64,000 nt of DNA from a virus, in the UHGV virus genome UHGV-0298424. The stretch is one strand, 5' to 3'. Position numbers and translations under genes: made by a program. The notes beneath the pieces are model-generated. The model ran no database searches. It saw only the letters and a list, made by a program, of their open reading frames with translations, and was not told the DNA's origin. Of this stretch, positions 40,446 through 55,900 are shown one piece after another (position 1 is the stretch's first letter; each line of letters begins with the position of its first letter).

Positions 40446-41183
40446 TTACGCGGTTTTAATTAACAGCAGATAGTCCTTCGTAATCTCAGCACAACTCCAC
40501 CCTCTCATCGTGGCGATTTTACGAAGATCAATTTTCTCGTGATATTTCAATAAGGGATCGTCTGAGTTAATCTCAACCAGGTGGGTGGCTTTAGAAATCG
40601 TTTCCACATCTGGGATCTGTTTTGCTAAGTCGGATGCAATCAGTTCAATAACGCGGTAACCCTTTAACACAGAAACATAGATGCGCAAACCATATAGCGT
40701 GCCCTCGTCTTCTAATGGACAAAGATCGATGCCGGGTCCAAGCAGTGATAACTCGACGTTATCGGGAAGGTTTTCTGCATTTCGGAGTAACCCTATCCCA
40801 TTTCTAAACAGAGGGAAGTAAGAGAATAGTGGTGGTAAAGCCCAACCGTTCCCAATAAGCACATCATCGATACTAGTAGGCGTGTTCGCAAGAAGACGAA
40901 TGTGGTCAGCCACAACTTCAAGTTCGGCATCACTGATCAACTTATAGATTAACATGACACTGGTTTCGGTATTAATAACGAAGAAGACGCGGTTGGCGTA
41001 ACTGCCTATCACGTATTCGTCAATCATACAGTCGATAACGTCAGTGTCTGGATAATCTTCAGGTTTAATTGTTCCAGCATCGATTAACTTAGCAGGTTGC
41101 GATTGTTTTAATAGTTCGTTAACAACAGTAGAAGAAAGTTCTAAACTGGTGTTAGTAAAGATATCGTCTAATAATTCTCTCAT
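40446..41183 (-). CDS. hypothetical protein, QLLF-tail paralog family member 4
   Basis: N-terminus MRELLDDIF, C-terminus RGWSCAEITKDYLLLIKTA; first gene of the minus block. Confidence 0.45.
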   Translation of the reverse strand: MRELLDDIFTNTSLELSSTVVNELLKQSQPAKLIDAGTIKPEDYPDTDVIDCMIDEYVIGSYANRVFFVINTETSVMLIYKLISDAELEVVADHIRLLANTPTSIDDVLIGNGWALPPLFSYFPLFRNGIGLLRNAENLPDNVELSLLGPGIDLCPLEDEGTLYGLRIYVSVLKGYRVIELIASDLAKQIPDVETISKATHLVEINSDDPLLKYHEKIDLRKIATMRGWSCAEITKDYLLLIKTA

Positions 41184-41279
41184 GATTTACTCGCTAATCT
41201 TAATAAAGGGAAGTCTATTATTATGGATTGTAAAAGAGGTATAAGGAAGTCACTACGTTCCTCTGGGAAGAGTATGTCG

Positions 41280-41340
41280 GTATACTACGTATACCTCCGC
41301 TATTTATATCCGTATACATAATGCCCCCTACCCCCTACCG
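41280..41340. promoter_or_regulatory. cluster of GTATAC palindromes and CCCCTACC direct repeats
   Basis: three GTATAC hexamers within 40 bp (41280-41317) followed by CCCCCTACCCCCTACC; lies in the 420-bp divergent intergenic region. Confidence 0.3.
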
Positions 41341-41519
41341 GTATCCCGAGTAGCAGAATAAAGGGACAGACTGTAAAATTTTAGTACCTGTTATCGGAAG
41401 GTACTAAATGGAGTGTAGTCTTTAAGCCGTTTGTGCAGCTCATTGAGACTTTCTTTTTTTAGTAGACATGATCTGTCTCCCCAAATGGTTTAATCAATCC
41501 GTTTCGAATGAAACGTGTC

Positions 41520-41590
41520 CGTAGGGACTGAAGTGCCAGTTCAGTCCCTATTCACTTAAGTAATATATATCTGAAATCAATTCCGATCTA
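41520..41590 (+). promoter_or_regulatory. hairpin plus conserved TAAGTAATATATATCTGAAAT motif (copy 2)
   Basis: AGGGACTGAA-loop-TTCAGTCCCT stem followed by the motif, about 15 nt upstream of the first plus-strand structural gene. Confidence 0.4.
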
Positions 41591-41602
41591 AGGAACGTCC
41601 CG

Positions 41603-42568
41603 ATGGAGAAATCCAGTGTTGATTTTTTCTCAATTGGTATCGTCGCGGAAGACAAACCCCGTGGTACAGATCGGGTAAAAGTGATACCAATTGAAACTAA
41701 TTTTGCTAACCCTACCGTGGTGCAATCTGTTTCTTCAGCAACTGAAAAGACACATGAAACATCTGGTGCAACAGATAACCTAACCATTAAGACGGGTAAC
41801 ACGATAACAGCAAAGTGGTGGAAGTTTAACTCCAACCGAATTAATTCCCCTGACGTTAAACGAGAAGATTACGTTATCTTGTTACGTTTGGGGAAAACCG
41901 ATATTTATTTTTGGATTGATCTGAACTTCGCTAACGTTAAGCGATTAGAGGATGCGGTTTACGCGTGGTCTGCTGACCCTGAAAACCAGATGGCGGATGA
42001 CCTGTCCAATGCGTATGTGTTGAATATCTCGACGATTGACAAACATATCACGCTAAGAACAAGTATGGTGAACGGTGAGAAAGCGGCGTGGTTATTTCAG
42101 TTTGATAATGCAAATGGCACGTGGCAGTGTGTTGACCACAAAGGGAATAAGTATTACATTAACTCGGTGGAAGACGATTTAGGTTTTGAGAATGCGATGC
42201 TCTCAAAAGTGAACATCAACAAAGAAGATGCGTTCATTTATTCAAAGCGTTCTATTAACCTGGAAACGAAAACGATTAATGAAAAATGCGAAGTTCGCAA
42301 TACGGAAGCAGCGAAATCCGTTACGTTTAAAACACAAACCTGGTTAACGGAAGCAGGGAGTTCGACAACATTTAAAACGCCGAACTTTAAACAAGAAGGG
42401 AAGGAAGCGATGTTCACCGGTAATCTGGAAGTCGCTAAGAACTTCAAATACGGTGGTACGGGCAAAGGCGTCGGTGTCTTTACGGTTAAAGATGCCGTTA
42501 TTTCTGGTATTACCTTTAGCGTTCACATTCACCAAGGTAAACATGGCCCGACATCACCTCCGCAATAA
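41603..42568 (+). CDS. hypothetical protein (possible baseplate/tail component)
   Basis: 321-aa ORF, first of the plus-strand structural block; AAGGAA SD. Confidence 0.45.
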   Translation: MEKSSVDFFSIGIVAEDKPRGTDRVKVIPIETNFANPTVVQSVSSATEKTHETSGATDNLTIKTGNTITAKWWKFNSNRINSPDVKREDYVILLRLGKTDIYFWIDLNFANVKRLEDAVYAWSADPENQMADDLSNAYVLNISTIDKHITLRTSMVNGEKAAWLFQFDNANGTWQCVDHKGNKYYINSVEDDLGFENAMLSKVNINKEDAFIYSKRSINLETKTINEKCEVRNTEAAKSVTFKTQTWLTEAGSSTTFKTPNFKQEGKEAMFTGNLEVAKNFKYGGTGKGVGVFTVKDAVISGITFSVHIHQGKHGPTSPPQ

Positions 42569-42774
42569 TTCCCCTTTTTCTTACGTTGTTTTTATATATT
42601 GTGACCTGACGTTGGTAAAACTTTTTATCAACACTTTTCTTAAACCCATCGTTTAGTTAAGCAGGCCACTTTTTTCGCGCACTCTACTCCTCCCTACGGG
42701 GAGGAGCTATCTTATGCTTCGGTTGTAATACACGTCGGTCTTAGACCACTAACCTTTTGAAATGGAGAGCTGTT

Positions 42775-42984
42775 ATGTCTATTAAAGAGTTCTCTTCTGC
42801 TGAGCATATTCCAGAAGAGTTTAAGAAAATCGGTAACGTTAGCGCTTTCGGCGATACCGTTGATCATGTAACTGGTAAACTGGCTGCTGAAGCCGAAAAA
42901 ATTGGCGGCGACGCATTCAAAGTTATAGGTATTTCCGGCAACAACAAACTGCACGGTAACGCGATTGTCTACAAAAAAGACTAA
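42775..42984 (+). CDS. DUF1471 (YdgH/BhsA/McbA-like) domain protein
   Basis: ATG 42775 after GGAGAG; KIGNVSAFGDT...LAAEAEKIGGDAFKVIGISGNNKLHGNAIVYKK resembles the enterobacterial DUF1471 fold; no signal peptide. Confidence 0.5.
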   Translation: MSIKEFSSAEHIPEEFKKIGNVSAFGDTVDHVTGKLAAEAEKIGGDAFKVIGISGNNKLHGNAIVYKKD

Positions 42985-43003
42985 GCGAAAAAAAAACGTG
43001 CTA

Positions 43004-43028
43004 CTCCTACCCTCTTAGAGGGTAGGAG
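43004..43028. terminator. bidirectional terminator
   Basis: CTCCTACCCTC-TTAG-GAGGGTAGGAG flanked by A9 and T7 runs; between convergent genes. Confidence 0.6.
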
Positions 43029-43034
43029 GTTACT

Positions 43035-44297
43035 TTATTTTTTTCGTGCCCTAAAGCGATGCATTTCTAAATACACTTTTTCCCAGGGACCGAATGGACC
43101 AACGATTGCTTGAGCGTCGTTAATCTTCTTCTGATTATACCACCGGGCTTCACGAAAGACGTAGTTTTGACTGTCGAATTCGGTAGTGTTAAATACCCAC
43201 TCACCTTCCTCCCACGTAGGCCAATAACCTACCGTCTTACCAAATCGATTATTTAAGTACCCTAATGGTTTTTCAGAATCAGGATCGTTGGGGTCCTTGA
43301 GATAACAACGTCCCCAAACGGCGTTATGCGAAACGCCCACAACTTCTTCTTCTAAATACGGATTATCTACCGTAAAGATAAAAGAGGATTCGTGCAGTAA
43401 AAGCGCTTTCAGTGTTTCAGGGTTACGAATACGTTGAACGTTGGTAGGCGATGATAAATCCCCTACACCAATGCTATCCCAGTCGTAATAACGGCGGGTT
43501 TCCAGAACGGTCCGTGCAAGATCAAAATTCGGTAAAGAAATCATGATCGCGCGGTCAGAGAAATAACCGTCCGGGGGTAACCAACGTAACAATCCGCCTA
43601 TGACGAAACCCACGGTTTTCCCCGTAATAGACTCAGGCAGCGATATCATTAACGTGGAGTAATAGTCGCGTGTAGTGTCGAGCTTGTTTAGCGTAAGGTT
43701 GGCGATTGGGTAAGTTTTAACATTCCCTAGCTGACCAAAAACCATACAGCCAATATCTGGCGTACATGCTCTCCGTACAATTTTACCGGCCCCAGGCAAC
43801 CGCACACCTACGGTATCCGTCTGGTGCGGTACCCATTGACCGTTAATGTTGTACAGCACACTATTACGGTATTTGTCTTTCCACTTGTCCTCACAAACGA
43901 CGACAACGTCATCAGCATCGTCTAGGCTGAAATCTTGACTGTGGTGGTACCCTGGTGGACACAGATATGTTTCGACAGGTACATCGGCATTAATTGATTG
44001 GTAGTGTGCCCAACTGAATTCCAGTTTCGGCAATCCAGCCTTTAGAGTGGGAATGACGTTTCCGGCCTTTTCGTTTAACCAATCTTGTAAAGTGTCTGTT
44101 CGGTTTTGTAGTTCGGCAAGATGGTATTGACTGACTAACGTATAGTCTTTACCAAGTGCACTTAAACCGATCTCAAAGGTGTGGTAGTCTGAACACAACG
44201 TAGTTAAAGGTTGCGTGACATCGATGGCTCCCCAGGTACGGGACTCTCGAGAGAAGCCAAAAGCGCTGTCGGGTCGCACTTGATAAGCAGTAGTCAC
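43035..44297 (-). CDS. hypothetical protein (420 aa)
   Basis: only minus-strand gene inside the structural block; bidirectional terminator 43004-43028 at its 3' end. Confidence 0.45.
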   Translation of the reverse strand: MTTAYQVRPDSAFGFSRESRTWGAIDVTQPLTTLCSDYHTFEIGLSALGKDYTLVSQYHLAELQNRTDTLQDWLNEKAGNVIPTLKAGLPKLEFSWAHYQSINADVPVETYLCPPGYHHSQDFSLDDADDVVVVCEDKWKDKYRNSVLYNINGQWVPHQTDTVGVRLPGAGKIVRRACTPDIGCMVFGQLGNVKTYPIANLTLNKLDTTRDYYSTLMISLPESITGKTVGFVIGGLLRWLPPDGYFSDRAIMISLPNFDLARTVLETRRYYDWDSIGVGDLSSPTNVQRIRNPETLKALLLHESSFIFTVDNPYLEEEVVGVSHNAVWGRCYLKDPNDPDSEKPLGYLNNRFGKTVGYWPTWEEGEWVFNTTEFDSQNYVFREARWYNQKKINDAQAIVGPFGPWEKVYLEMHRFRARKK

Positions 44298-44366
44298 AGC
44301 TCTTTTTCCTCTATAGATTCAAGTCATAGTATGAACTTCGACGCCCACGGACTATAGGAGTAGATA

Positions 44367-47300
44367 ATGGCTGTCGTCTTAGACCCACACTTCAAAAAAC
44401 CGGGGAATAAAATAACCGGTGAAGCGGTCGCCGTCATTGGTACGAAATACCGAATGTTGGTACCTGCCCACGCCCCTTTTTTCACCACATCCCTGGTGGT
44501 CAAGAGCGGCGGCAAAATACTGACCTTAGGCGACGATTACGTTATTACACACCCGTACGAGACTGGTATGTTGCGCACAGCCTATCTCATTCACGGGATG
44601 ATTTGGATTGTTAATGACAAATACAAATCGAACTTTACTGTAGATTACCATGCTGTTGGTTGTGGCCAGGCTACTCAGCAGCAGATTACCGCAGAGCGCG
44701 AGCTTAATAAAGGTAAATACCCCTCCGCGTGTCAGTGGGACACCGTTATCGGAGACGTTTACTTTCCACCGGTCGATATCCAGTTCGATTGGGAGAATTG
44801 GAAAGGTGAACTGGAGCTAATGCAGGCCATTGCTGGGGTAGGCGATTCGTTAGGGGAAGTCGTGAGTCGTCTTAACCCAATCGCACGCAATACACTGGAT
44901 TTGGAATATCGTGCTAATAGCAAGGTTATCACTTCCGAGCAGTATGCTGCGTACGATAATAAAGGCGGTTTCACCTACAACACAGCTCGCCACCGTTATA
45001 GCCTGAGTTATAAAGCGACAACCTTTAACAACTATTCCCTGTCGGTGAAACACAGAATTCCTGCTATTCTGCCAGACATGACAAAGTTGAATCCGAACGA
45101 ACAGATCGATTGGATGCTCTGTTATGCCAACGGCGGTGCAAGTATTCTACGGTTACAGCTAAAACAGCGCAAAATCTCACTGGTCTTAACTGTCGCTATT
45201 GGCAGTGGTTCAACAAACTACGATTATACTTTAATCAACGGTTTAACTGACGATGAGTTAAAAAACGATATCGATTTTAGTGTAACCCGACAACCCGGAA
45301 ACGGCGTTTACGTAATCGTAGTAAAAACAAATAAACAGACCATGGATTATACGTTCAACGTCGATACGCCGCCTGATGAGTTCTCGGCAGGGTATTCGAA
45401 AACGGATGTAGCCAAATGGTTGAAGTCTAAAACGAACATTAACCTGAACTGGTATGCGGCTGAAAACGATTATGTTCAAATTCGTTCTTTACCCGGCGCG
45501 CCGGAGCCTGACGTCGATAACGATGTTTACCAGTTAATAGTTAAGTATCATCAGTTGGTTGAGCAGCTGTATCGTAATGCGCCTGCGCACGAACACGTTA
45601 CACGTAAGGACAACCCACACACAGATACGTGGGGTCCGATCCGTGCGTTAGAGTTGAACGGTATTGCGTCGGATGCAGCATTAGCTTACGGAAAAACGAA
45701 GCCGCAGTTAACGGATTATGTTAATGCTAAGTATCCAACACAAGCGACGCTGACAGCACAAAAGAAACTATTGCGCACGTCAGCTACGAAAACGGCTAAC
45801 GGAACTATTGGAACGCTGCCCGGTTTTACTTCGTTCACGACGGAAGTTGACCCGGTGTCAATGTCGAAATACGTGAGTCCTCGTTTTAGCGAAAGCTACG
45901 TTAGTAATGGTCACAGGTATCACGGTGCGCTTCGTTACACAGGAACGAAGAGTGGATTCGCCACTTCTTTTAATGCGGTACCTGCTAACCTGCAAGATAT
46001 TGACTTTATTGTTACCGGACGTAAAACAGCGTCTGGTAATGAAGCTGTCGGTACGGTTAGCCTACGTTTCTATCAGAAACCTGGTACTAACTCTGGAAAA
46101 TTTATCCAGCTTACAGGTGAAATTTCTGCGGGTAAAGTCGGCGTTAAGTTGGAACTGAACGGTTTTTCGAATCCCACACCGGAAGTTCAGTATCTTTCCC
46201 AAGCTCCTAATCCAGCAATACCGGATGGGGATTTTACGCTGCGTTTTCAACTGAAACGCACAGGGAACGTGTTTGATGTCGTTATTACCATAAACGGCAA
46301 GACATACAGTGCACGTGTTAACTTCACTAACATGGACGCTGCACTAGAAGCATTGGAGAATAGCCACCACTTTAAATCATTGATCAGTAATGTTGCTGAC
46401 AATGTCACTATTAGCTCGGGGAATAAAGGTAACACGGTTACCATTAAGAAAGCGCCCGACGTCGTTGACGGGACCAGTTTAGGTGCCCAGTTTGTCGTTG
46501 ACCCGAAATCCATTAAGTTTATTGGACAAGGTTCAACCGAGGTTAATGCGGGGAATAACCCTGTAACGTTTCAAGCAGGTACTAACCAACTTATATTGTA
46601 TCCTGATGATCGTGGGTTACAGTGGCGTGGTAAGAAACTCTTAGACCCCACTACCGTGGCTCCGTATCTGCCAGGCAATACCGCGGGCGGTACGGGATTA
46701 TTCTACGGTACATCTACAACCACGGTAGAACTTACCGGTAGCGGGATAAAAGCATCGCCGTTCGTAGCGACTTTTATTCTCCCTACCGCGACCGATACAA
46801 CAGCCCTGGCAGCTTGGCAGTTGACCGATGAGTTTGGTACCGCTGAAAACCTTGCAGCAACGCCAGCACTGATTGAAAAACTCGATGCGGAGTTCACCGG
46901 TAAATTAGTTGCGGTTAAATCGTACATTAACGACATGCAACTTACCAGCTCGGTCACTATCGACAAAATTACCTTTGGTTTAGGTAACGTTGCGAATACA
47001 CCCGATGTCAATTTACCGATTTCTACAGCACAACGTGCGGAGTTAGATAAATACTCGCCTAAAGTTCACCAACACCCGTTTACCGCTTTTGGTACTGGGA
47101 ACGCAACCACAGCGAAACGTGGTCTGATTAAATTTGGTCTGGATGTGGATGATGCGACTTTAGCACTCGATGGGAGTGTGGTAATGGCGCAGACTTCCCA
47201 GATTGAAAAATTGGAAAATGCTGTCGGTGGCGTTGACTCGGGTGCTCGCGTTGACATTATTCGTTTCGGCAAGTCTGGTGACGACTTAATTAACGTTACG

Positions 47301-48689: not shown

Positions 48690-48702
48690 GGAGAATTTTT
48701 TG

Positions 48703-51700
48703 ATGAAAGCGTATCCTTACGATCCTCGGGGGACGAAAACCGAGAATCACTTCTTAGAGGAGCGTATCATCGGGTCAGAAAACAACAACGATCGGGTGGT
48801 GATTTTAGACCATCGCCCGTTCTTTGAAGATTTAGTCGTCAGACAACCAGGTTCAACCACCCCACTGAGTCGTGGGGTGGACTACGAACTGCAATATCAG
48901 CTGACGGAACTGGATGACTCGGTAGCAGCCAACGTGTATTGTGGGGTACACCTTATCAACCCTTCCATCAAAGGCATCGTAACCTTTGAAGGACAAATGC
49001 TCGGCGGTACGTTCTACGACCCGTTTGTTGATATTCTCGATGAGCTGGTGAAATATTTGAATAACCCAGTCAGCGCTGACTGGTTGTTATTAGAAGGCAG
49101 ACCGTCGTTATACCCGGCTACGCCTGCGGCAACGTCTTGGGCGGATTTGCTAAACAAAAAATATTTAGCGTCGGCAGTCCACGATGTTGAATTGAAAACC
49201 GATGACGCTAACCAGTTAATTAAAGATAAATTAGCCGAAGTTAAAGCGTTAGTCGCCGCGCTGGGTAAAGAAATCGAGACATTTAACTACCCGGCACACA
49301 TCGCGGAAACCAACCCGCACCAAACCACTTCTGCACAGATTAACGCACATCCTGTTAACTTGAAAACACCCGACACCTTTATGGCGTACGGGTTAAAGTT
49401 GAAAGCATTGACGGATGAGCTGAAAGCGTTTCGTTTACCACAGTCAGTTATTGACACGTATATCTCCCACTGGATTTCTTCAGAAGTACGGGGTGTGTTT
49501 AACTGTACGGTGTCAGGAAACCGTGCACAGTTCCGCTCAAAAAACGGTGAGTCAGAAATCATTTTTGCGAATGATGGCTTTACGTTAAAATCCAACGGTT
49601 CTGTAGTGTTAGCGGTAGGGCATCTGGAAGGAACGGGTGCAGGACGTTACATTAACTGGCGTGCTGGTAAAAACATCCTACGTATCGAGTCAACAGGCGA
49701 TGCTTTAGGGATGAACAAACTCACCCTAAACGGTAACCCGTTACTGACCACCACAGCATTGATGGAATACCAACAAGATCCTGATGCTGGCGGGAGCGGT
49801 GGCGGTGACCCCGACGACTCAAAGGTGTACATCGAAGGCCGTAATGGGATTAGCTTCACCGGTAAAGGCTCTCGGACCGATCCTATCGTGGGTACTATCG
49901 ACCCGACGAAAGCGACAACCACTGAAAAAGGTGTTGTTAAGCTTAAAACTGGTAAAGGTACAGAAATCGTTGGGGTTGCAGCAACTCCGGCTTCGTTAGC
50001 GCCATATGCGACCGACCTATCGGGGTATGTGGCTAAAACGACCATGATTAACGGTAAGCCAATGAATGACGGCTCCAGGACAATCACGAAAGCTGACCTG
50101 GGGTTAGGGCAAGCGGATAATACCGCAGATCTTGACAAACCGTTGTCAACCAAGTTAACTGAGGCGGTTAGCGGTCTAGCAGATGTGGGCCATCATCACG
50201 ATTGGTCGGAGTTAGGTATTTATAAAGCTTCTCAATCTGTTTACGGTATTGGTCGTTATGCAACTAACCAGAACGGTTTGGTTGAAAACCGTGCAGTGGT
50301 ACCGAACATCCTAAAAGAGCTTTCGGCACGTTTAAGTGTGGTCGCTGCGGCAATTGCAAATGCGAAAGAAGGAACAGTCACGGATTTCGCTGCTGTAAAA
50401 GGCGCAGACTGGCGATTTAATAGCCAGGGTACGGCAATCTCCGTTCAGGATTTGAAATATTTCTATTTGCTGGACGGCATGAAAGGTGACAGTACCGTTA
50501 CCGGTGCGATTGACCTGCAAACCACTCCGATGTTTAACTGGTTCTCACCGAACAACCAACTTGAGCTGACTTGGCCTACGGGTAAGGTGAGTAAAGGTAC
50601 CGGGATTAGTTGGGATGGAATTGTTGATCCCCCAACAATGGGGTTTCAGTCAGTTCCGGTAGGTAAAAGCGCCACCCAGATGGGCGTTCAGTCCGTTGTA
50701 TCGGTACTGGCTAAAACGCGCGTCAAAGCTCGTCAGAAAAGGCTGTTTGTTTATGCCGCTGGCGGTGGGACAATAACCGTTTATGTAAATGGTGTTGTAG
50801 GCGCTACTGGTGCGTCGCCATTGTTAATGAACTATGGAACGTCTCCAGATGTTGAAAACTACACAATTGCTGTTAAAGCAGAGTGTAGTGACACGGCTAA
50901 ATCTGCAGCGGTACAGTTCGAAGTTTACGATGGTGACTACCCCGTTTATTTCAGTGGTCCTGAAACGCGTGTAGAGCTTCTCCAGGAGTTTGTCACAACG
51001 CATGTAGGTATTCGTCATTATTTGTACGTTAACATGCTCACAGGCTCTCTGTATTCGCGTGCTGAACCAGTTCAAGGATTTGAGGTCGATCCAGAACGCG
51101 GATATATCGGTTATGTTGATATCGTTCCTGGTCAGTCTTACGCGAATAAAACCGTGGGATTTGAAACCACGTTTGATTTCGGGAAAAGTGCGGAAGTTAG
51201 CGAGCATAATAGTATTCGTAAGGCACACGGTCTCAACGCTGCGGACTGGTCACTGACGGATAACCCACGGTTGCCGTTATTAAACCGTGCTATTGCCGAA
51301 CCAAGAGCGTGTATCTTTAGGAAACCGTTAGCAACCGCTACAGGGGATGTTTTCCATCTTGTCAGTCGTGGTCTTTATACTTACGCACACAACCAAAACG
51401 TGAAGTCGAGTCTTCAATACGTTGTGATACCTGAAGGTGCTACGCCGTATTGTTGGTTTACACCATTTAACCCGAAAGAAAACAACGCACCGACATTCGA
51501 AGGCTCGTTTGCGTTCGATGTTGACGATGTTGGTGGAACGCAAGCCCTTGCTGCTGCGCCGGATTTGGTTCTATGCACGTCAACGCAAGGTAGCAGCGTT
51601 AAACGTCGCTATCTGCGCATTGACCTAACTACCAAAACCTGTAAGTTGGGGATTGGTTCCCGTTCAGATTCTGCTGTTACGGATATTCCGTTAGTGATGG

Positions 51701-52884
51701 AGGAGTCTGGGGAAACGGCAGTGGCCGCAACGTTTAAGGATGTGTTGTTCAACGGTGAGGAAACCAACGCGGCGACGCTCGACTTGATAGGTTGGGGTGC
51801 CAGCCGAGATAAAATTTCTGCAAACCATGCACCTCGTGGCATGATTCGCTATCGTTACAACGTAAACAGTCGGGTATTACGTTTAGCACTGACGTTCTCA
51901 CAGTTCGGAACGACAACAGTTAAACATCGACAGCTGGAGATTCAATTCCCGTTCGATTTAGTGGATTATTTCACTGGCGACGGTGTGGGATTGTCGTTTA
52001 AAGAACTGTCTGCGAAATGCCGTGTAACGATTAGTCACGCGCTGATTGATCCGGCTACGAGTAACGTCGACATTGATAAGTACCATTACTTACGTTCGTT
52101 GTTCGAATCGTATCTGGATTCGTCCGTTGGGTATTTGGCTGATACCAAAGACGTTGATTTTAGTCAGACTGTGATTGACCCCGCGACTTATGAGATTAGT
52201 CAGAAATACCGCGTTACAGAAAGCATCGCGCTGCCAACCGGCCAGGGAAGTGTTGCTGTTTCACATGACGGTCAGTTGCCTGCGCAGTTCTTTGACCGTA
52301 AGCTGTCTCGTGGTGCCTTGATGGCCAAGAAAGGTGAACTCAACGCTTCCTGGAATAATGAGTGGAGCACGACTAAAGCTGCTGCGAGTCGTTATCGCCA
52401 TAAACTCATTCTACGCTTTGCACAAGGTGCTGATAAACAGCAGTATCGCGTTGCAAAAGTGGCCGGGACGGTGAAGTCTAACTGGCCGGGTAAAGTGATT
52501 ATCGGTGATGCCGGGAAGGACCCGTATGTATCGGCTATTGATAGCGTATCTTTTGCGCTTTCGACCGCCTCTGATACAGGTAAAGCGATTACTCTTACGC
52601 CAAAGGACTTACGTGTAGGTCAGGACATTTATATTGTCTTAGAACCGCCCGGCAATAATCCGGAAGGTTATGAACTTAACTTTACCTGTTCGTTAGATGT
52701 CACTGACGAGAAAGGTGTCCGTCAAGATCAACTCAATGCACAGAGTTTCGAACTCCGTAGCGGCGAAAGTCAGTTCTTAATGGAGAAACGCAACCCGTAC
52801 CATATCACGAGTAAAGCGTGGAAGTGGATTTTGGCTGTACTGAAACGTGAACTTAACGGGAAGCAGTTAGGGGATCGTACTTAG
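48703..52884 (+). CDS. tail fibre protein (about 1393 aa)
   Basis: ATG 48703 after AAGGAGA; shared N-terminal domain; KATTTEKGVVKL and TITKADLGLGQADNTADLDKPLS fibre-shaft motifs; tandem terminator hairpins after stop. Confidence 0.7.
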   Translation: MKAYPYDPRGTKTENHFLEERIIGSENNNDRVVILDHRPFFEDLVVRQPGSTTPLSRGVDYELQYQLTELDDSVAANVYCGVHLINPSIKGIVTFEGQMLGGTFYDPFVDILDELVKYLNNPVSADWLLLEGRPSLYPATPAATSWADLLNKKYLASAVHDVELKTDDANQLIKDKLAEVKALVAALGKEIETFNYPAHIAETNPHQTTSAQINAHPVNLKTPDTFMAYGLKLKALTDELKAFRLPQSVIDTYISHWISSEVRGVFNCTVSGNRAQFRSKNGESEIIFANDGFTLKSNGSVVLAVGHLEGTGAGRYINWRAGKNILRIESTGDALGMNKLTLNGNPLLTTTALMEYQQDPDAGGSGGGDPDDSKVYIEGRNGISFTGKGSRTDPIVGTIDPTKATTTEKGVVKLKTGKGTEIVGVAATPASLAPYATDLSGYVAKTTMINGKPMNDGSRTITKADLGLGQADNTADLDKPLSTKLTEAVSGLADVGHHHDWSELGIYKASQSVYGIGRYATNQNGLVENRAVVPNILKELSARLSVVAAAIANAKEGTVTDFAAVKGADWRFNSQGTAISVQDLKYFYLLDGMKGDSTVTGAIDLQTTPMFNWFSPNNQLELTWPTGKVSKGTGISWDGIVDPPTMGFQSVPVGKSATQMGVQSVVSVLAKTRVKARQKRLFVYAAGGGTITVYVNGVVGATGASPLLMNYGTSPDVENYTIAVKAECSDTAKSAAVQFEVYDGDYPVYFSGPETRVELLQEFVTTHVGIRHYLYVNMLTGSLYSRAEPVQGFEVDPERGYIGYVDIVPGQSYANKTVGFETTFDFGKSAEVSEHNSIRKAHGLNAADWSLTDNPRLPLLNRAIAEPRACIFRKPLATATGDVFHLVSRGLYTYAHNQNVKSSLQYVVIPEGATPYCWFTPFNPKENNAPTFEGSFAFDVDDVGGTQALAAAPDLVLCTSTQGSSVKRRYLRIDLTTKTCKLGIGSRSDSAVTDIPLVMEESGETAVAATFKDVLFNGEETNAATLDLIGWGASRDKISANHAPRGMIRYRYNVNSRVLRLALTFSQFGTTTVKHRQLEIQFPFDLVDYFTGDGVGLSFKELSAKCRVTISHALIDPATSNVDIDKYHYLRSLFESYLDSSVGYLADTKDVDFSQTVIDPATYEISQKYRVTESIALPTGQGSVAVSHDGQLPAQFFDRKLSRGALMAKKGELNASWNNEWSTTKAAASRYRHKLILRFAQGADKQQYRVAKVAGTVKSNWPGKVIIGDAGKDPYVSAIDSVSFALSTASDTGKAITLTPKDLRVGQDIYIVLEPPGNNPEGYELNFTCSLDVTDEKGVRQDQLNAQSFELRSGESQFLMEKRNPYHITSKAWKWILAVLKRELNGKQLGDRT

Positions 52885-52978: not shown

Positions 52979-55900
52979 ATGCCGAGAGAAGACGCGGCGC
53001 AGTTTAACGGTACGCTAAGCACAGCGACGTACCCTAACCGATTTAACGTGGTCATTCCGCCTGAAGGACCTTTTTATCGTATCGGATTAAAACTCACAGT
53101 AGCCGACGATACCGCGCCTAACGGACGTCGTACTCTGATTGAGGGGTTGGACTACTATTTAGGCTATTACTTTAAAGAACTCGCAGAAGCTGAACAAGAT
53201 CAGATTTATGGCGGGTTTATGTTGCTTACTGCAACAGAAATCGAATATGAGATTTTAGGGGTAGCACGGCAGTATCGTGTACCGCAATCTGAAATCGGGA
53301 AGTTCTTAGTTCGTACTGACCTGAAAGACCCGCGTAACGTGGACTGGTCGGAGTTAATGGCGTACGCGCCGGTTATTCAACCAATCGACCCCCCTGCTAA
53401 CTTAGAAGAAGCTATTCTGAGGGACGAGGTCGTTAAAGCGTTGAACGATATCCGTAAGAAAATCGTTCAGCGTTCAACAGAGTTAGATGCGGCCTTCACC
53501 GAAGTCACTAACCTGATTTACGAGAACGGTAAAAAGATTTTCGATGAAGAACTATACCAACACCACCTTAATCCTAACGCTCACCAGTATACGACCAATG
53601 ACGTTGGGGCCCTTCCGGTTTTAGGACGTGCTGTTGACGCTACAAAAGCGTTTGGGTTGACAATTGACCAACTGGCTACGCTGATGGGTTCGGCGGGCAT
53701 TGAGCAATCAGACGTTGAACAGCTAATGGGTGAAGCCCTCGGTACCGTTTACGGTCGTTGGGGCACCACGAACGGTAACGAACTAACGTTTAAAACACCG
53801 GGTGGACACATCATCAGCATCCGTGGTGATAAGTGGTTAATTACCTCCCCGCAACCGTTAGTGATTAAAGCAGACCAAGACAACAACGAATCCGGTTTGG
53901 CGGTTGAGTTTAGTGCGGGACTGAATACGCTTTGGGTACACTCTGGGTCAGAACAGGATGTATTAGCACCGGTCTATAACTCTGTGTATCTCGTTACACC
54001 AGAAATGGTGAACATGTACCTGACGTCTGTAACGTTACTTGAAGCGAATGCCTATTTCAAACCGTCAGACACCGTAAAACCGTACGGTACAGCGAAGCAG
54101 TCTAACCCACTAACGTTGAACGCGAATATTCCCACAGCAACCGAGTCGGTTTATGGGGTGTTTTCGATTACGAATATCGCAACCTCTGTAGCGCTAGGCA
54201 CTGCTATTTCCCAAAAGGCTGTGACCGAGTTAAAAAACCGGTTGGACTTGTACGTTGACGACGACTACACGGTTAACGGTAAAGGGTTTGTTAAGACAGG
54301 CGACAACATGGTGTTAACCTTAACGAAGGCCGATTTCGGTATCGATAAGATGAATAACACCACACCCATCGCTAAACCGGTAACAAAAGCATTAGCGAAC
54401 GTGCTGAAAAATAAAAGTTTGAAGGTACACACGCACACTACCGCTGATTTGGATAATGTCCCGATTGGTAGCGCAACAGTTGACGGTATCTTACAGCTGT
54501 GGGATGCGATTGATACCACGAATGATAAAGCCGTCACATCACGCCAAGGGTGGCTGTTCGCAAAAGAGATTAAGAAGGTCTCTGATAAACTGAATACCCT
54601 CTTGCCCGCATGGACAACGGCCGGGAGCAAATATACCAACAATTCGATATTGCCGATCTTGTCGATGGGTAATTACGAAGGTTATGGTAAAAACATGGAT
54701 GCGCTCCAGATGGTTATAGGGGTACAACAAGGTAAGCTTTATGCTTTAATTAGCTCTAAATCCGCCCTTCCGGGAACTGAGGGTATTTATTACGCTGTTG
54801 CTGGGTTAAAAAACGACAAAAGTCTCGGTGAAATTTACAAAACAACTTTCCGTTATAAGCCGAAAGGGTTAGAGACGAATTATCCGGGGGTGGAACTAAA
54901 AGAAATTACCGTTACTGGTACCGAAGCATTTATAGCGAAGGGCAGCGACGATAATTATTATTTAGTTAAACTGAACGGTTCAATGGATTACACCAAACAT
55001 ACCGATGTCAGGTTGGTAACTTTCTCAGAATTTGTTTCAGAAACAACATGGGAATTTGTGCCGAATATGTTCATGGATCGTGTGGTCATAGCCGATAACG
55101 GCGTCTATGTTTTGCGTACGATGCTAATGGCCGATCTGAAAAACAATACTCTGGTGGACTACATTAAGGATACCCCACAACCCATGTTCCGTGTTGGCTT
55201 ATTGCGGCTTAATAAAACCGATCGGTTTGAACAGGTTGATTTAAGGTCTACACGAAAAATCGGTAAGTGTGCCGATTTGGTTGAACCTGGCGCGTTCGAT
55301 GTAGATAATCCGAATACGAAGCGTCTTGCCTACTTCACTGCGGAAGGCAAAGCGTTGTGGACAGTGAACTTACAATTAACTAGAGGGTCGTCAAGATGGA
55401 TAACGCCCGTTGTTAAGGACGGTCACTTGTTAACCGTCGGCGTGTCTGGTGTTTGTCTTGGTTTTTCTTCAACGAAAGGTACCACATTCGGGCCATGGAA
55501 TGGTGCTTATCGTCTTGACCTATTAACCGGGGAGGTTGGGTTAGAGACAACTAACGTCTTCCCAATCAAAATCGATACTACAGGTTGTTACTTAAAAGAC
55601 GGAACAAAAATAGAGCTGAAATGGAAATGGGCTACTCGAAGTTCTGGCTATATGGCCGACAATAGAATCTGTGTCGGTGATATGGTTTATTCTTGCTGCT
55701 GTTCGACAGAAAAACAACTCGCACCATCTCTCCATTACCAGAAACTCCCAGAAGGAGTTAGTTATCTGGACTATGTTAAGTTGAGTGTGGGGTATGAGGG
55801 GCAATCTACGTTTGAAAATCGGATAAACCCTGTGGTGGGTTCGGTGTGGAAACCGTCTATGACCTTCCCATTGTTCTTCCCAGGAACAAACAAAGTATGG

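What the first reader, a model, noticed from the sequence alone, without database searches (positions are those of the whole stretch)
42775..42984. DUF1471/BhsA-like domain without a signal peptide, next to the fibre genes
DUF1471 proteins are normally small periplasmic stress proteins of Enterobacteriaceae with a signal peptide. Here a 69-aa version without signal peptide is encoded between structural genes, suggesting a virion-associated or intracellular role and pointing to an enterobacterial host.
Basis: partly seen in the sequence, partly recalled or inferred. Interest (0 to 1): 0.4.

Follow-up and report, generated by a model that had tools for sequence, protein, structure and literature searches.

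The report
Signal-less DUF1471 gene beside phage spike
A giant (jumbo) phage of enteric bacteria carries a small, well-conserved copy of a bacterial periplasmic stress-protein domain (DUF1471) that starts exactly where the bacterial export signal would be cut off and lies just after the gene for the tail's puncturing spike; the gene family is already catalogued, but what it does is unknown.

Summary
Window 42775-42984(+) is a real 69-aa gene. It matches Pfam PF07338 (DUF1471/YdgH-BhsA-McbA) above the curated cut-off and is confidently predicted to have the DUF1471 fold. It has no signal peptide: Met1 aligns with the signal-peptidase site of bacterial homologues, and an in-frame stop lies 10 codons upstream.

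The window is an SPN3US-like nucleus-forming jumbo phage (Chimalliviridae). The gene is the orthologue of SPN3US gp172 (PHROG 8068), and RefSeq already annotates that gene as a DUF1471 protein. In at least four phage genera it sits in the same slot: after the central spike gene (phiKZ gp164 homologue) and convergent with a baseplate gene (phiKZ gp130 homologue).

It is under purifying selection and forms its own unit, with a terminator hairpin and a phiKZ-type TTAC...TATG promoter-like motif upstream and a bidirectional terminator downstream.

Published SPN3US proteomics found gp172 in virions in 2017 at low abundance. Its row in the 2020 study's mutant preparations is inconsistent, and it is absent from the 2023 tables, so virion association is equivocal.

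My best guess, at modest confidence, is a host-derived envelope-binding domain that is made in the cytoplasm and rides loosely on the baseplate. It is not BhsA. Interest is modest.

The parts
42775..42984 (+). CDS, 69 aa plus stop: a signal-less DUF1471 (PF07338) protein, orthologue of SPN3US gp172 / PHROG 8068
   Evidence: ORF and sequence; Pfam 38.2 bits against a cut-off of 27; PHROG 8068 at E 4.5e-32; AF2 pLDDT 89.4; Foldseek matches to DUF1471 structures; dN 0.139 with dS saturated against SPAsTU
42764..42767 (+). Shine-Dalgarno GGAG, 7 nt before the ATG; conserved as TGGAGA/TGAGGA in all relatives
   Evidence: Sequence; alignment of nine phages
42687..42706 (+). G+C-rich hairpin CTCCTCCC-TACG-GGGAGGAG after the spike gene. 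It is terminator-like with a weak T tail, and its loop TAC lies 19 nt before the G of TATG
   Evidence: Terminator scan; fold -18.1 kcal/mol, z -3.0. Relatives have a hairpin plus T-run at the same place
42713..42716 (+). TATG motif (within TATCTTATGC), conserved as TATGC about 60-80 nt upstream of the start codon in all nine phages compared. Putative phiKZ-type middle/late promoter start for the phage non-virion RNA polymerase (inferred)
   Evidence: phiKZ late promoters are defined by TATG with the start at G, and middle promoters by AAanTTACc near -24 (PMC4666361). No sigma-70-like site in 42569-42774
42737..42747 (+). Small 5'-UTR hairpin GGTC-TTA-GACC. Relatives carry AGAC-ATAGG-GTCT at the equivalent place
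   Evidence: seen by eye in the alignment; not tested statistically
43004..43028 (.). Bidirectional intrinsic-terminator-like hairpin between the convergent genes, with an A-tract at 42988-42996 and a T-tract at 43037-43043
   Evidence: Terminator scan; -25.1/-25.6 kcal/mol, z -5.8/-6.5 on the two strands. An equivalent hairpin is present downstream of the gene in all nine phages compared. 94-98% identical in relatives whose flanking genes are 79-88% identical
41603..42568 (+). Context: central spike / cell-puncturing protein (SPN3US gp173, phiKZ gp164 homologue) with a fused Mu gp45-like apex at aa 267-320
   Evidence: PHROG 3216 'baseplate assembly protein', E 5.7e-114; PDB 6orj PHIKZ164 E 1.6e-21; Mu gp45 3vtn/3vto/9ki1 E 0.002-0.007
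43035..44297 (-). Context: convergent baseplate gene (SPN3US gp171, an essential tail protein; phiKZ gp130 homologue, the star-lobe connector above the fibre attachment sites)
   Evidence: PHROG 3337; PDB 9xqd_L PHIKZ130 E 2.6e-8; PMC5105663; PMC13250141
44367..48689 (+). Context: first of three giant virion (baseplate/fibre paralogue) genes, corresponding to SPN3US gp170; the others are 48700-52884 and 52979-58165
   Evidence: PHROG 7557 'virion structural protein'; synteny with SPN3US gp170-168; ORF list

Best explanation
Shown: this is the orthologue of SPN3US gp172. It is a DUF1471 domain taken from an enterobacterial host by an ancestor of the SPN3US-like Chimalliviridae, trimmed to exactly the mature (post-signal-peptidase) form. 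It is kept in one fixed slot after the central spike gene and is under purifying selection.

Inferred: it is transcribed as its own unit by the phage RNA polymerase from a phiKZ-type middle/late TTAC...TATG promoter. It is translated efficiently from a strong ribosome-binding site in the cytoplasm and cannot be exported by Sec.

Proposed mechanism: the domain keeps the envelope-directed, polyanion/glycan-type binding seen in cellular DUF1471 proteins and reaches the envelope from outside. It would be a loosely bound, sub-stoichiometric passenger of the baseplate/spike region that meets the outer membrane and periplasm when the tail contracts. It would not be a core building block of the tail. 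Loose binding would explain why it appears in some virion preparations and not others.
For: Identity and fold.

Mature-form-only architecture. In an exhaustive HMMER search of 1.84 billion cluster representatives, the phage-type proteins are the only coherent signal-less group. Nearly all other hits are 80-95 aa with a hydrophobic N-terminus.

Fixed synteny (spike, then a 200-310 bp gap, then DUF1471, then a convergent gp171-like gene) holds in Seoulvirus, Erskinevirus, Wellingtonvirus and Derbicusvirus.

Purifying selection.

Own regulatory signals, conserved more strongly than the adjacent coding DNA. The phiKZ promoter rules are in PMC4666361.

The SPN3US orthologue was detected in CsCl-purified virions with 4 peptides, 6 spectra and 81% coverage. 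It was classed as 'tail' because it was absent from tailless heads (PMC5694885; PMC7411985 Table S2).

The domain occurs only in phages of Enterobacterales, the same taxonomic range as the cellular family (PMC4092069). Cellular DUF1471 domains (SrfN, YdgH-III) bind oxyanions and sulfated polysaccharides (PMC4092069).

A tandem second signal-less paralogue in Wellington shows the family is in active use in these phages.
Against: Virion association of gp172 is not reproducible. It gave 0 spectra in tailed am59-supF particles and 2 in a 'heads' sample. It gave 13 in a crude differential-centrifugation pellet. It gave 0 in four further mutant samples (one step-gradient band and three step-plus-buoyant-density preparations of proheads and tails). 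In two of those, gp171 gave 39 spectra and gp173 gave 26-27. It is not listed in the 2023 triplicate wild-type tables, although proteins with 2-3 spectra are listed there.

The genomes of this clade are broadly collinear, so conserved position alone does not prove a functional link to the spike. A convergent gene junction is also a typical neutral landing site for acquired genes.

No binding partner or ligand has been tested. The phage proteins are acidic (pI 4.5-6.3), unlike the basic face of SrfN. The His of the SrfN/YdgH oxyanion site (H60 here) is Phe in SPN3US, Phobos and Derbicus.
Confidence: 0.4

Rival explanations
1. Non-structural accessory protein. It acts inside the infected cell (cytoplasm or phage nucleus) on a new, non-envelope target, or it simply binds envelope debris after lysis. 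Its appearance in virion preparations is carry-over of an abundant small soluble protein.
For: The gene has moron-like anatomy: its own promoter-like motif and terminators at a convergent junction. Its ribosome-binding site is strong. gp172 was most abundant in the crude pellet containing cell debris (13 spectra; 1.86 per kDa). It was absent from purified tail-containing samples and from the 2023 virion tables. Precise removal of the signal peptide ensures retention in the cytoplasm.
Against: It was found with 81% coverage in CsCl-purified wild-type virions and again in am59-supD virions. Every characterised member of the fold family works in the envelope (PMC4092069). A 7-kDa protein is easily lost from gels, so negative MS results are weak evidence.
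Confidence: 0.3
2. Tail, baseplate or fibre assembly chaperone. A small protein encoded in the tail module helps the spike, the gp171-like connector or the giant fibre paralogues to fold or assemble, and is mostly released before the particle is complete.
For: The gene lies between the spike and baseplate/fibre genes in all genera. The promoter motif is of the middle/late type. The sub-stoichiometric, irregular presence in particles is what is usually seen for assembly chaperones (general phage knowledge, e.g. T4 gp38/gp57A and lambda Tfa; recalled, not tested here).
Against: No DUF1471 protein is known to act as a chaperone. phiKZ builds homologous spike, gp130 and gp131-type fibres without any DUF1471 protein. 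The gene is transcriptionally separated from its neighbours.
Confidence: 0.15
3. Stoichiometric spike accessory. It would replace the PAAR-like spike tip that phiKZ encodes (gp163.1) in the same position directly after the spike gene.
For: The position is equivalent. phiKZ gp163.1 follows gp164 by 9 bp on the same strand and caps the spike (PMC13250141). Here the small gene after the spike gene is the DUF1471 gene.
Against: The window's spike already carries a fused Mu gp45-like apex, so it has no blunt beta-helix end to cap. The fold is alpha+beta DUF1471, and no PAAR family appears in the Pfam scan at E<=1. The gene is separated from the spike gene by a 206-bp gap containing a hairpin rather than being translationally coupled. 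gp172 did not co-purify with gp173 in the 2020 mutant preparations that contained tails.
Confidence: 0.05
4. A true BhsA-type 'multiple stress resistance protein', as several GenBank records annotate it, giving the host periplasmic stress or biofilm phenotypes.
For: The best NCBIfam hit is the BhsA equivalog model. Depositors annotate it so in SPAsTU, Kwan, Wellington and Stratton.
Against: The score is 46.8 bits against a cut-off of 90 for the BhsA model, and only the mature part aligns. There is no signal peptide, so the protein cannot reach the periplasm or outer membrane. There is no sigma-70-type promoter. The phage family is lytic and uses its own RNA polymerases.
Confidence: 0.03

Closest known systems
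SPN3US gp172 (SPN3US_0172 / YP_009153466.1; PHROG 8068) and its orthologues in phiEaH2, SPAsTU, Wellington, CR5, Phobos and Derbicus
   Same: Same gene: 67-73 aa (80 as annotated in Derbicus), signal-less DUF1471, and the same slot between the spike gene (gp173) and gp171. The window protein is 80% identical to the SPAsTU protein and 45% to SPN3US gp172. RefSeq already names it a 'DUF1471 domain-containing protein'.
   Different: Only sequence divergence. The window's phage has no close cultured relative: at most 11% of window 1-25000 is covered at about 74% identity in the phage collection.
Bacterial DUF1471 / YhcN family (BhsA/YcfR, YbiJ, YahO, McbA, SrfN, YdgH)
   Same: Pfam PF07338 match, the same beta-beta-alpha-beta-beta fold, the size of the mature domain, the conserved KIG.VS..G ... 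GA..F.I ... N.LHG.A..YK motifs, no cysteines, and restriction to Enterobacterales (PMC4092069).
   Different: No signal peptide, so it is made and kept in the cytoplasm. It is phage-encoded, probably transcribed by a phage RNA polymerase, has 1-7 extra residues after the terminal YK, and is acidic. It scores below every NCBIfam equivalog cut-off.
RcsF (outer-membrane lipoprotein sensor of the Rcs phosphorelay)
   Same: Best structural superposition by TM-score normalised to the query (2y1b TM 0.85; 9biy_B 0.82). The DUF1471-RcsF fold similarity is published (PMC4092069).
   Different: 12% identity, no lipobox or signal peptide, and no cysteines at all, whereas RcsF needs its disulfides. The similarity is in fold only.
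phiKZ gp163.1 / T4 gp5.4 (PAAR-type spike tip)
   Same: A small gene placed directly after the central spike gene of a related jumbo phage (PMC13250141).
   Different: Unrelated fold. phiKZ gp163.1 is tightly coupled to gp164 (9-bp gap), whereas here there is a 206-bp gap with a hairpin and a promoter-like motif. The spike here has its own fused apex.
Spike-linked cargo effectors of type VI secretion systems (conceptual analogue, from general knowledge)
   Same: Proteins that act in the target cell's periplasm, lack Sec signals and are encoded next to the spike (VgrG) gene, because the contractile machine delivers them from outside.
   Different: There is no evidence here of loading onto the spike, of delivery, or of any enzymatic or toxic activity. 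This is an analogy only.

Membership tests
DUF1471 / PF07338 (YdgH-BhsA-McbA-like domain) | Profile match above Pfam's gathering threshold over the whole domain | tested here: met
   38.2 bits against 27, E 1.4e-9, profile positions 2-55 of 55
DUF1471 / PF07338 (YdgH-BhsA-McbA-like domain) | Mixed alpha+beta fold of YahO, SrfN and YdgH domains | tested here: met
   AF2 pLDDT 89.4. Foldseek matches 4evu, 2m2j, 2ma8 and 2noc at TM 0.73-0.78, prob 1.00. This is a predicted structure, not a solved one.
DUF1471 / PF07338 (YdgH-BhsA-McbA-like domain) | N-terminal Sec signal peptide and periplasmic/secreted location (typical of cellular members) | tested here: not met
   Hydrophilic N-terminus, a stop 10 codons upstream, and Met1 aligned at the cleavage site. 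No dedicated signal-peptide predictor was available; a hydropathy window and alignment were used.
DUF1471 / PF07338 (YdgH-BhsA-McbA-like domain) | Restriction to Enterobacterales | tested here: met
   All phage carriers infect Enterobacterales. The identical protein is deposited under Salmonella, E. coli and Shigella.
BhsA (NCBIfam NF047859 equivalog, 'multiple stress resistance protein') | Score at or above the curated equivalog cut-off, over the full-length precursor | tested here: not met
   46.8 bits against a cut-off of 90, and only profile positions 30-85 align. The same holds for YbiJ, YahO, McbA and YhcN.
SPN3US gp172 orthologue group (PHROG 8068) | Full-length profile match and conserved position between the spike gene and the gp171-type gene | tested here: met
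   PHROG 8068 at E 4.5e-32, residues 1-69 on profile positions 1-70 of 70. Synteny in nine genomes.
Virion structural protein | Reproducible presence in purified particles at a defined copy number | not testable with these tools
   Literature for the orthologue is contradictory. It was present in 2017 virions, irregular in the 2020 tables and absent from the 2023 tables.
PAAR / spike-tip protein (phiKZ gp163.1, T4 gp5.4) | PAAR-repeat fold that caps the blunt end of the spike beta-helix | tested here: not met
   The Pfam scan at E<=1 gives only PF07338 and a chance repeat hit. The model is alpha+beta. The spike has its own Mu gp45-like apex.
RcsF | Lipoprotein signal and lipobox, and two conserved disulfides | tested here: not met
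   The 69 residues contain no Cys and there is no signal peptide. Only fold similarity is present.
Moron-type acquired gene | Own promoter and terminator, inserted between conserved genes, with deviant base composition | tested here: inconclusive
   A promoter-like motif and flanking hairpins are present. GC content (42.5%) does not differ from the window (44.2%) or its neighbours (42.1%, 46.1%). The insertion is ancient and shared by four genera.

The most novel reading that the evidence does not exclude
The signal-less DUF1471 protein is cargo of the contractile tail. It would be loaded near the central spike and released into the host periplasm or outer membrane during puncture, like the Sec-independent periplasmic effectors carried on type VI secretion spikes. 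There it would mimic or compete with the host's own DUF1471 envelope-stress proteins (or the similarly folded RcsF) to blunt envelope-stress or capsule responses at the start of infection. That would make it a virion-delivered periplasmic effector in a nucleus-forming jumbo phage.
Probability: 0.1. Interest if true: 0.7.

Novelty: new variant of a known kind. Interest (0 to 1): 0.3.

Why it matters
DUF1471 proteins are a large, Enterobacterales-specific family of periplasmic stress, biofilm and virulence proteins whose biochemical function is still unknown. A phage lineage has kept only the mature domain for a long time, under selection, beside its cell-puncturing spike. That gives an independent handle on the family: whatever the phage domain binds is a candidate for what the fold recognises in the envelope.

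For jumbo-phage biology it is a candidate host-specific accessory of the SPN3US-like tail, and it is absent from phiKZ.

On the practical side, the 'BhsA / multiple stress resistance protein' labels in several phage records are over-annotations and should not be read as stress-resistance genes carried by candidate therapeutic phages.

The gene family itself is already catalogued. The gain here is in interpretation, not discovery.

Tried and rejected
1. Phylogeny of the 56-column domain (16 phage and 72 bacterial representatives, NJ, 500 bootstraps). The phage sequences were not recovered as one clade (29/500) and no bacterial sister group was supported. The domain is too short and saturated, so I rest the single-acquisition argument on synteny instead. 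A first attempt timed out.

2. Sigma-70 promoter scan. No site was found in the 206-bp upstream gap, which argues against host-RNAP, moron-type expression.

3. Rfam scan of 41100-44500. Nothing meaningful was found.

4. PADLOC scan. No defence-related family matched.

5. Second copy in the window. An HMM search of all six-frame ORFs found only this one.

6. GTDB species-representative genomes. No close relative was found. In IMG/VR there were only 8 loci, all on contigs of 107-246 kb.

7. A BhsA-type bacterial query against 50,697 phage records. It hit only the same jumbo-phage clade, and only through the mature domain, so no other phage group detectably carries DUF1471.

8. Literature. No held paper discusses DUF1471 or BhsA in phages. 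The SPN3US infection time-course proteome (J Virol 2019, PMC6384053) is not held. The pSal-SNUABM-04 paper has no proteomics.

9. A fused-chain AlphaFold test of spike plus DUF1471 was considered and not run.

10. The antisense 80-aa ORF at 42712..42954(-) was dismissed as a shadow of the conserved + strand gene.
Full report
**1. What is there**

Window 42775..42984 (+) is an ATG-initiated ORF of 69 codons plus stop: MSIKEFSSAEHIPEEFKKIGNVSAFGDTVDHVTGKLAAEAEKIGGDAFKVIGISGNNKLHGNAIVYKKD. A GGAG lies 7 nt upstream of the ATG.

- It matches Pfam PF07338 (YdgH/BhsA/McbA-like, formerly DUF1471) at 38.2 bits against a gathering cut-off of 27. The E-value is 1.4e-9, and the match covers profile positions 2-55 of 55.
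- A profile of the phage proteins finds the solved YahO structures 2ma4/2noc at E 1.6e-6.
- An AlphaFold2 model from an 8-sequence alignment is confident (mean pLDDT 89.4), with a beta-beta-alpha-beta-beta layout.
- Its best Foldseek PDB matches include the solved DUF1471 domains of YdgH (4evu, 2m2j), SrfN (2ma8) and YahO (2noc), at TM 0.73-0.78. RcsF is also among the top matches (TM 0.85). The RcsF fold similarity was already described for this family (PMC4092069).

**2. No signal peptide**

- The first 16 residues are acidic and hydrophilic. The highest 9-residue Kyte-Doolittle mean in the first 30 residues is 0.52. Almost all bacterial homologues retrieved exceed 2.0 and are 80-95 aa long.
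- The reading frame is closed by a stop 10 codons upstream. The only other possible start (TTG, 42757) would add just MKWRAV.
- In an alignment with bacterial precursors, the phage Met1 falls on the A-x-A signal-peptidase site. For example, P0068 reads ...FGFA|AKEITTLDHLPSN and the window reads MSIKEFSSAEHIPEE.

The phage gene therefore encodes the mature domain and nothing else. The protein has no cysteine, so it has no lipobox and needs no periplasmic disulfide formation.

**3. What genome this is, and how widespread the gene is**

The region is related to SPN3US-like jumbo phages (Seoulvirus, family Chimalliviridae).

- tblastn finds the protein in 60 phage records. All are jumbo phages of about 197-251 kb infecting Salmonella, Erwinia, E. 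coli, Cronobacter or Proteus. Identity is 80% to SPAsTU/STsAS and 45% to SPN3US.
- It belongs to PHROG 8068, 'unknown function' (E 4.5e-32).
- RefSeq already labels the SPN3US gene (gp172 in the original numbering) 'DUF1471 domain-containing protein'. Several Erwinia and Salmonella phage records call it 'multiple stress resistance protein BhsA'. That label is not justified. The BhsA equivalog model scores 46.8 bits against a cut-off of 90, and only the mature part aligns.
- A BhsA-type bacterial query against all 50,697 phage records hits only this same clade.
- IMG/VR holds 8 loci, all on contigs of 107-246 kb.
- In an exhaustive HMMER search of 1.84 billion cluster representatives, the top four hits (P0008-P0011, 68-78 aa) are signal-less and of the phage type. 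From the fifth hit on, the hits are bacterial precursors with signal peptides, apart from a few short fragments.

Signal-less DUF1471 is thus essentially a property of this one phage lineage.

**4. Context**

The upstream gene (41603-42568, +) is the central spike.

- It matches PHROG 3216 'baseplate assembly protein' and PDB 6orj PHIKZ164 at E 1.6e-21.
- Its last ~55 residues match the apex of the Mu gp45 puncturing device.

The downstream gene (43035-44297, -) is convergent. It is the homologue of SPN3US gp171, an essential tail protein (PMC5105663). It is also the homologue of phiKZ gp130 (PDB 9xqd_L, E 2.6e-8). In phiKZ, gp130 connects the outer baseplate 'star lobes' and sits above the fibre attachment sites (PMC13250141). 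Three giant genes follow (1440, 1394 and 1728 aa). They correspond to SPN3US gp170-168, the fibre/baseplate paralogue family.

The order is always spike, then a 200-310 bp gap, then DUF1471, then the convergent gp171-like gene. It is identical in Seoulvirus, Erskinevirus and Derbicusvirus, and in the window's own lineage. In Wellingtonvirus the same order holds, with two extra small genes inserted.

In phiKZ, which lacks DUF1471, the gene directly after the spike gene (9-bp gap, same strand) is gp163.1. This is the monomeric, T4 gp5.4-like spike tip (PMC13250141). The DUF1471 gene therefore occupies the positional equivalent of the tip gene. However, the spike here already has its own fused apex and the fold is unrelated, so it is not a PAAR-type tip.

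**5. The gene is functional and separately regulated**

- Against SPAsTU, dN is 0.139 while dS is saturated. Between SPAsTU and phiEaH2, omega is 0.095.
- Downstream, a perfect 11-bp-stem hairpin (43004-43028) flanked by an A-tract and a T-tract looks like a bidirectional terminator. It folds at -25 kcal/mol, with z -5.8/-6.5 on the two strands.
- Upstream, a G+C-rich hairpin (42687-42706) follows the spike gene. Relatives have a clearer hairpin plus T-run at that place.
- After it, all nine phages compared share a TATGC motif about 60-80 nt before the start codon. In most of them a TTAC (here only TAC, in the hairpin loop) lies ~20 nt further upstream.
- phiKZ late promoters are defined by TATG with the start at the G. 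Middle promoters are defined by AAanTTACc near -24 (PMC4666361).
- The divergent promoter region between the next two genes (44298-44366) also has TATG motifs on both strands.
- No sigma-70-like site lies in the upstream gap.
- In relatives that are about 84% identical overall, the first 165 nt of the gap, the terminator region and the divergent region are 92-96% identical. The flanking genes are 78-88% identical.

I infer transcription by the phage's non-virion RNA polymerase at middle/late times. This is not shown.

**6. Experimental evidence on the orthologue**

- Ali et al. 2017 detected SPN3US gp172 in CsCl-purified virions with 4 peptides, 6 spectra and 81% coverage. They called it the smallest virion protein, of unknown function and low abundance, and it was missing from gp47(am1) particles (PMC5694885).
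- In the 2020 study it is labelled 'tail', but its row reads as follows (PMC7411985 Table S2):
  - wild type: 6 spectra (the same dataset published in 2017);
  - am59-supD virions: 3 spectra;
  - tailed am59-supF particles: 0 spectra;
  - am59-supF heads: 2 spectra;
  - crude differential-centrifugation pellet with cell debris: 13 spectra;
  - four further mutant samples (one step-gradient band and three step-plus-buoyant-density preparations of proheads and tails): 0 spectra each. In two of these, gp171 gave 39 spectra and gp173 gave 26-27.
- In the 2023 triplicate analysis the tables go from gp171 to gp173 with no gp172 row, although non-virion proteins with 2-3 spectra are listed (PMC10052503).

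A 7-kDa protein is easily lost from gels, so the negatives are weak evidence. Even so, the protein is clearly not a stoichiometric partner of the spike or of gp171.

**7. Interpretation**

Firmly supported:
- The domain is host-derived and trimmed to the mature form.
- It was most simply fixed once in an ancestor of the enterobacterial SPN3US-like phages. This argument rests on synteny, because the domain tree is unresolved.
- It is maintained by selection.
- It is expressed as its own unit and cannot use Sec.

Inferred: why remove the signal peptide so precisely? Virions assemble in the cytoplasm. A periplasm-evolved binding domain can therefore stay useful without export in three ways: by being built onto the particle, by acting on envelope material after lysis, or by acquiring a new cytoplasmic target.

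I favour a loosely bound, sub-stoichiometric baseplate passenger that meets the envelope from outside (confidence 0.4). My reasons are the virion detections, the restriction to phages of the same bacterial order as the cellular family, and the oxyanion and sulfated-polysaccharide binding shown for SrfN and YdgH-III (PMC4092069).

The main rival is a non-structural protein, intracellular or debris-binding, that merely contaminates virion preparations (0.3). The crude-pellet enrichment supports it. An assembly chaperone (0.15), a stoichiometric spike accessory (0.05) and a genuine BhsA-like stress protein (0.03) are less likely, for the reasons given under each rival.

**8. Novelty and score**

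The gene family is already in the databases. It is in PHROG 8068 and has a RefSeq annotation, and the identical protein is deposited many times. The SPN3US orthologue has been mentioned in print as an uncharacterised small virion protein.

None of the papers I could search discusses three points: that it is a DUF1471 domain cut exactly at the signal-peptidase site, that it sits in the slot phiKZ uses for its spike tip, and that it has its own conserved phage-type promoter.

I rate it a new (signal-less, phage-borne) variant of a known kind, with modest interest (0.3). The most novel reading not excluded is a spike-delivered periplasmic effector analogous to type VI cargo (probability about 0.1).

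**9. Side observations**

The window's lineage has no close cultured relative. Cultured phages cover at most 11% of window 1-25000 at about 74% identity. Yet the identical DUF1471 protein is on record on 501 contigs, the longest 228.6 kb. It is deposited under isolate assemblies of Salmonella, E. coli and Shigella and occurs in many metagenomes. Relatives of 83-85% identity are deposited as circular ~222-kb 'plasmids' of E. coli 98232 and Enterobacter ludwigii 51A:C. That suggests a carrier state or episomal persistence of a nucleus-forming jumbo phage, or culture contamination. It may deserve its own follow-up.

Wellington carries a tandem second signal-less DUF1471 paralogue of 186 aa with a long acidic, apparently disordered tail.

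Noticed in passing
whole window; L010-L016; NZ_CP173450.1; NZ_CP134650.1: The window's jumbo-phage lineage has no close cultured relative: at most 11% of window 1-25000 is covered at ~74% identity in the phage collection. Yet the identical DUF1471 protein is on record on 501 contigs (longest 228.6 kb), deposited under Salmonella, E. coli and Shigella isolate assemblies and found in many metagenomes. Relatives of 83-85% identity are deposited as circular ~222-kb 'plasmids' of E. coli 98232 (urine) and Enterobacter ludwigii 51A:C (gull cloaca). This may mean a carrier state or episomal persistence of a Chimalliviridae phage, or contamination.
   Followed up: partly
L005:3287-3847 (Erwinia phage Wellington gp189): Directly after Wellington's 73-aa DUF1471 gene lies a second signal-less DUF1471 paralogue of 186 aa (PF07338 29.7 bits; 36% identical to the window protein). 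It has a ~120-aa acidic, low-complexity C-terminal tail, so this is a tandem duplication within the phage.
   Followed up: partly
window 41603-42568: The central spike is a phiKZ gp164 homologue with a fused Mu gp45-like apex domain (aa 267-320, ending HIHQGKHGPTSPPQ). phiKZ gp164 lacks this part and uses a separate tip protein, gp163.1. The SPN3US-like and phiKZ-like spikes are therefore built differently at the tip.
   Followed up: partly
window 42569-42735, 42985-43034 and 44298-44366: The intergenic DNA around the gene is more conserved (92-98%) than the adjacent coding DNA (78-88%) in relatives that are about 84% identical overall. The 69-bp divergent region 44298-44366 carries TATG motifs on both strands (CATAGTATGAAC / CATACTATGACT), which look like back-to-back phage promoters.
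   Followed up: partly
window 42737-42747: A small 5'-UTR hairpin (GGTC-TTA-GACC) sits where relatives have AGAC-ATAGG-GTCT. The stem is kept but with different sequence, which could be an mRNA-stability or translation element. This was seen by eye and not tested statistically.
   Followed up: no
window 41184-41602: An unusually long (419 bp) intergenic region lies between the divergent gp174-like gene and the spike gene. It contains several inverted repeats (e.g. GTACCTGTTATCGGAAGGTAC, CAGTCCCTACGGAC.../GGGACTGAAGTGCCAGTTCAGTCCC) and is only 75-78% conserved in relatives.
   Followed up: no
window 42712-42954 (-): An 80-aa GTG-initiated antisense ORF overlaps the DUF1471 gene. It has no support and is taken to be a shadow ORF.
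   Followed up: no
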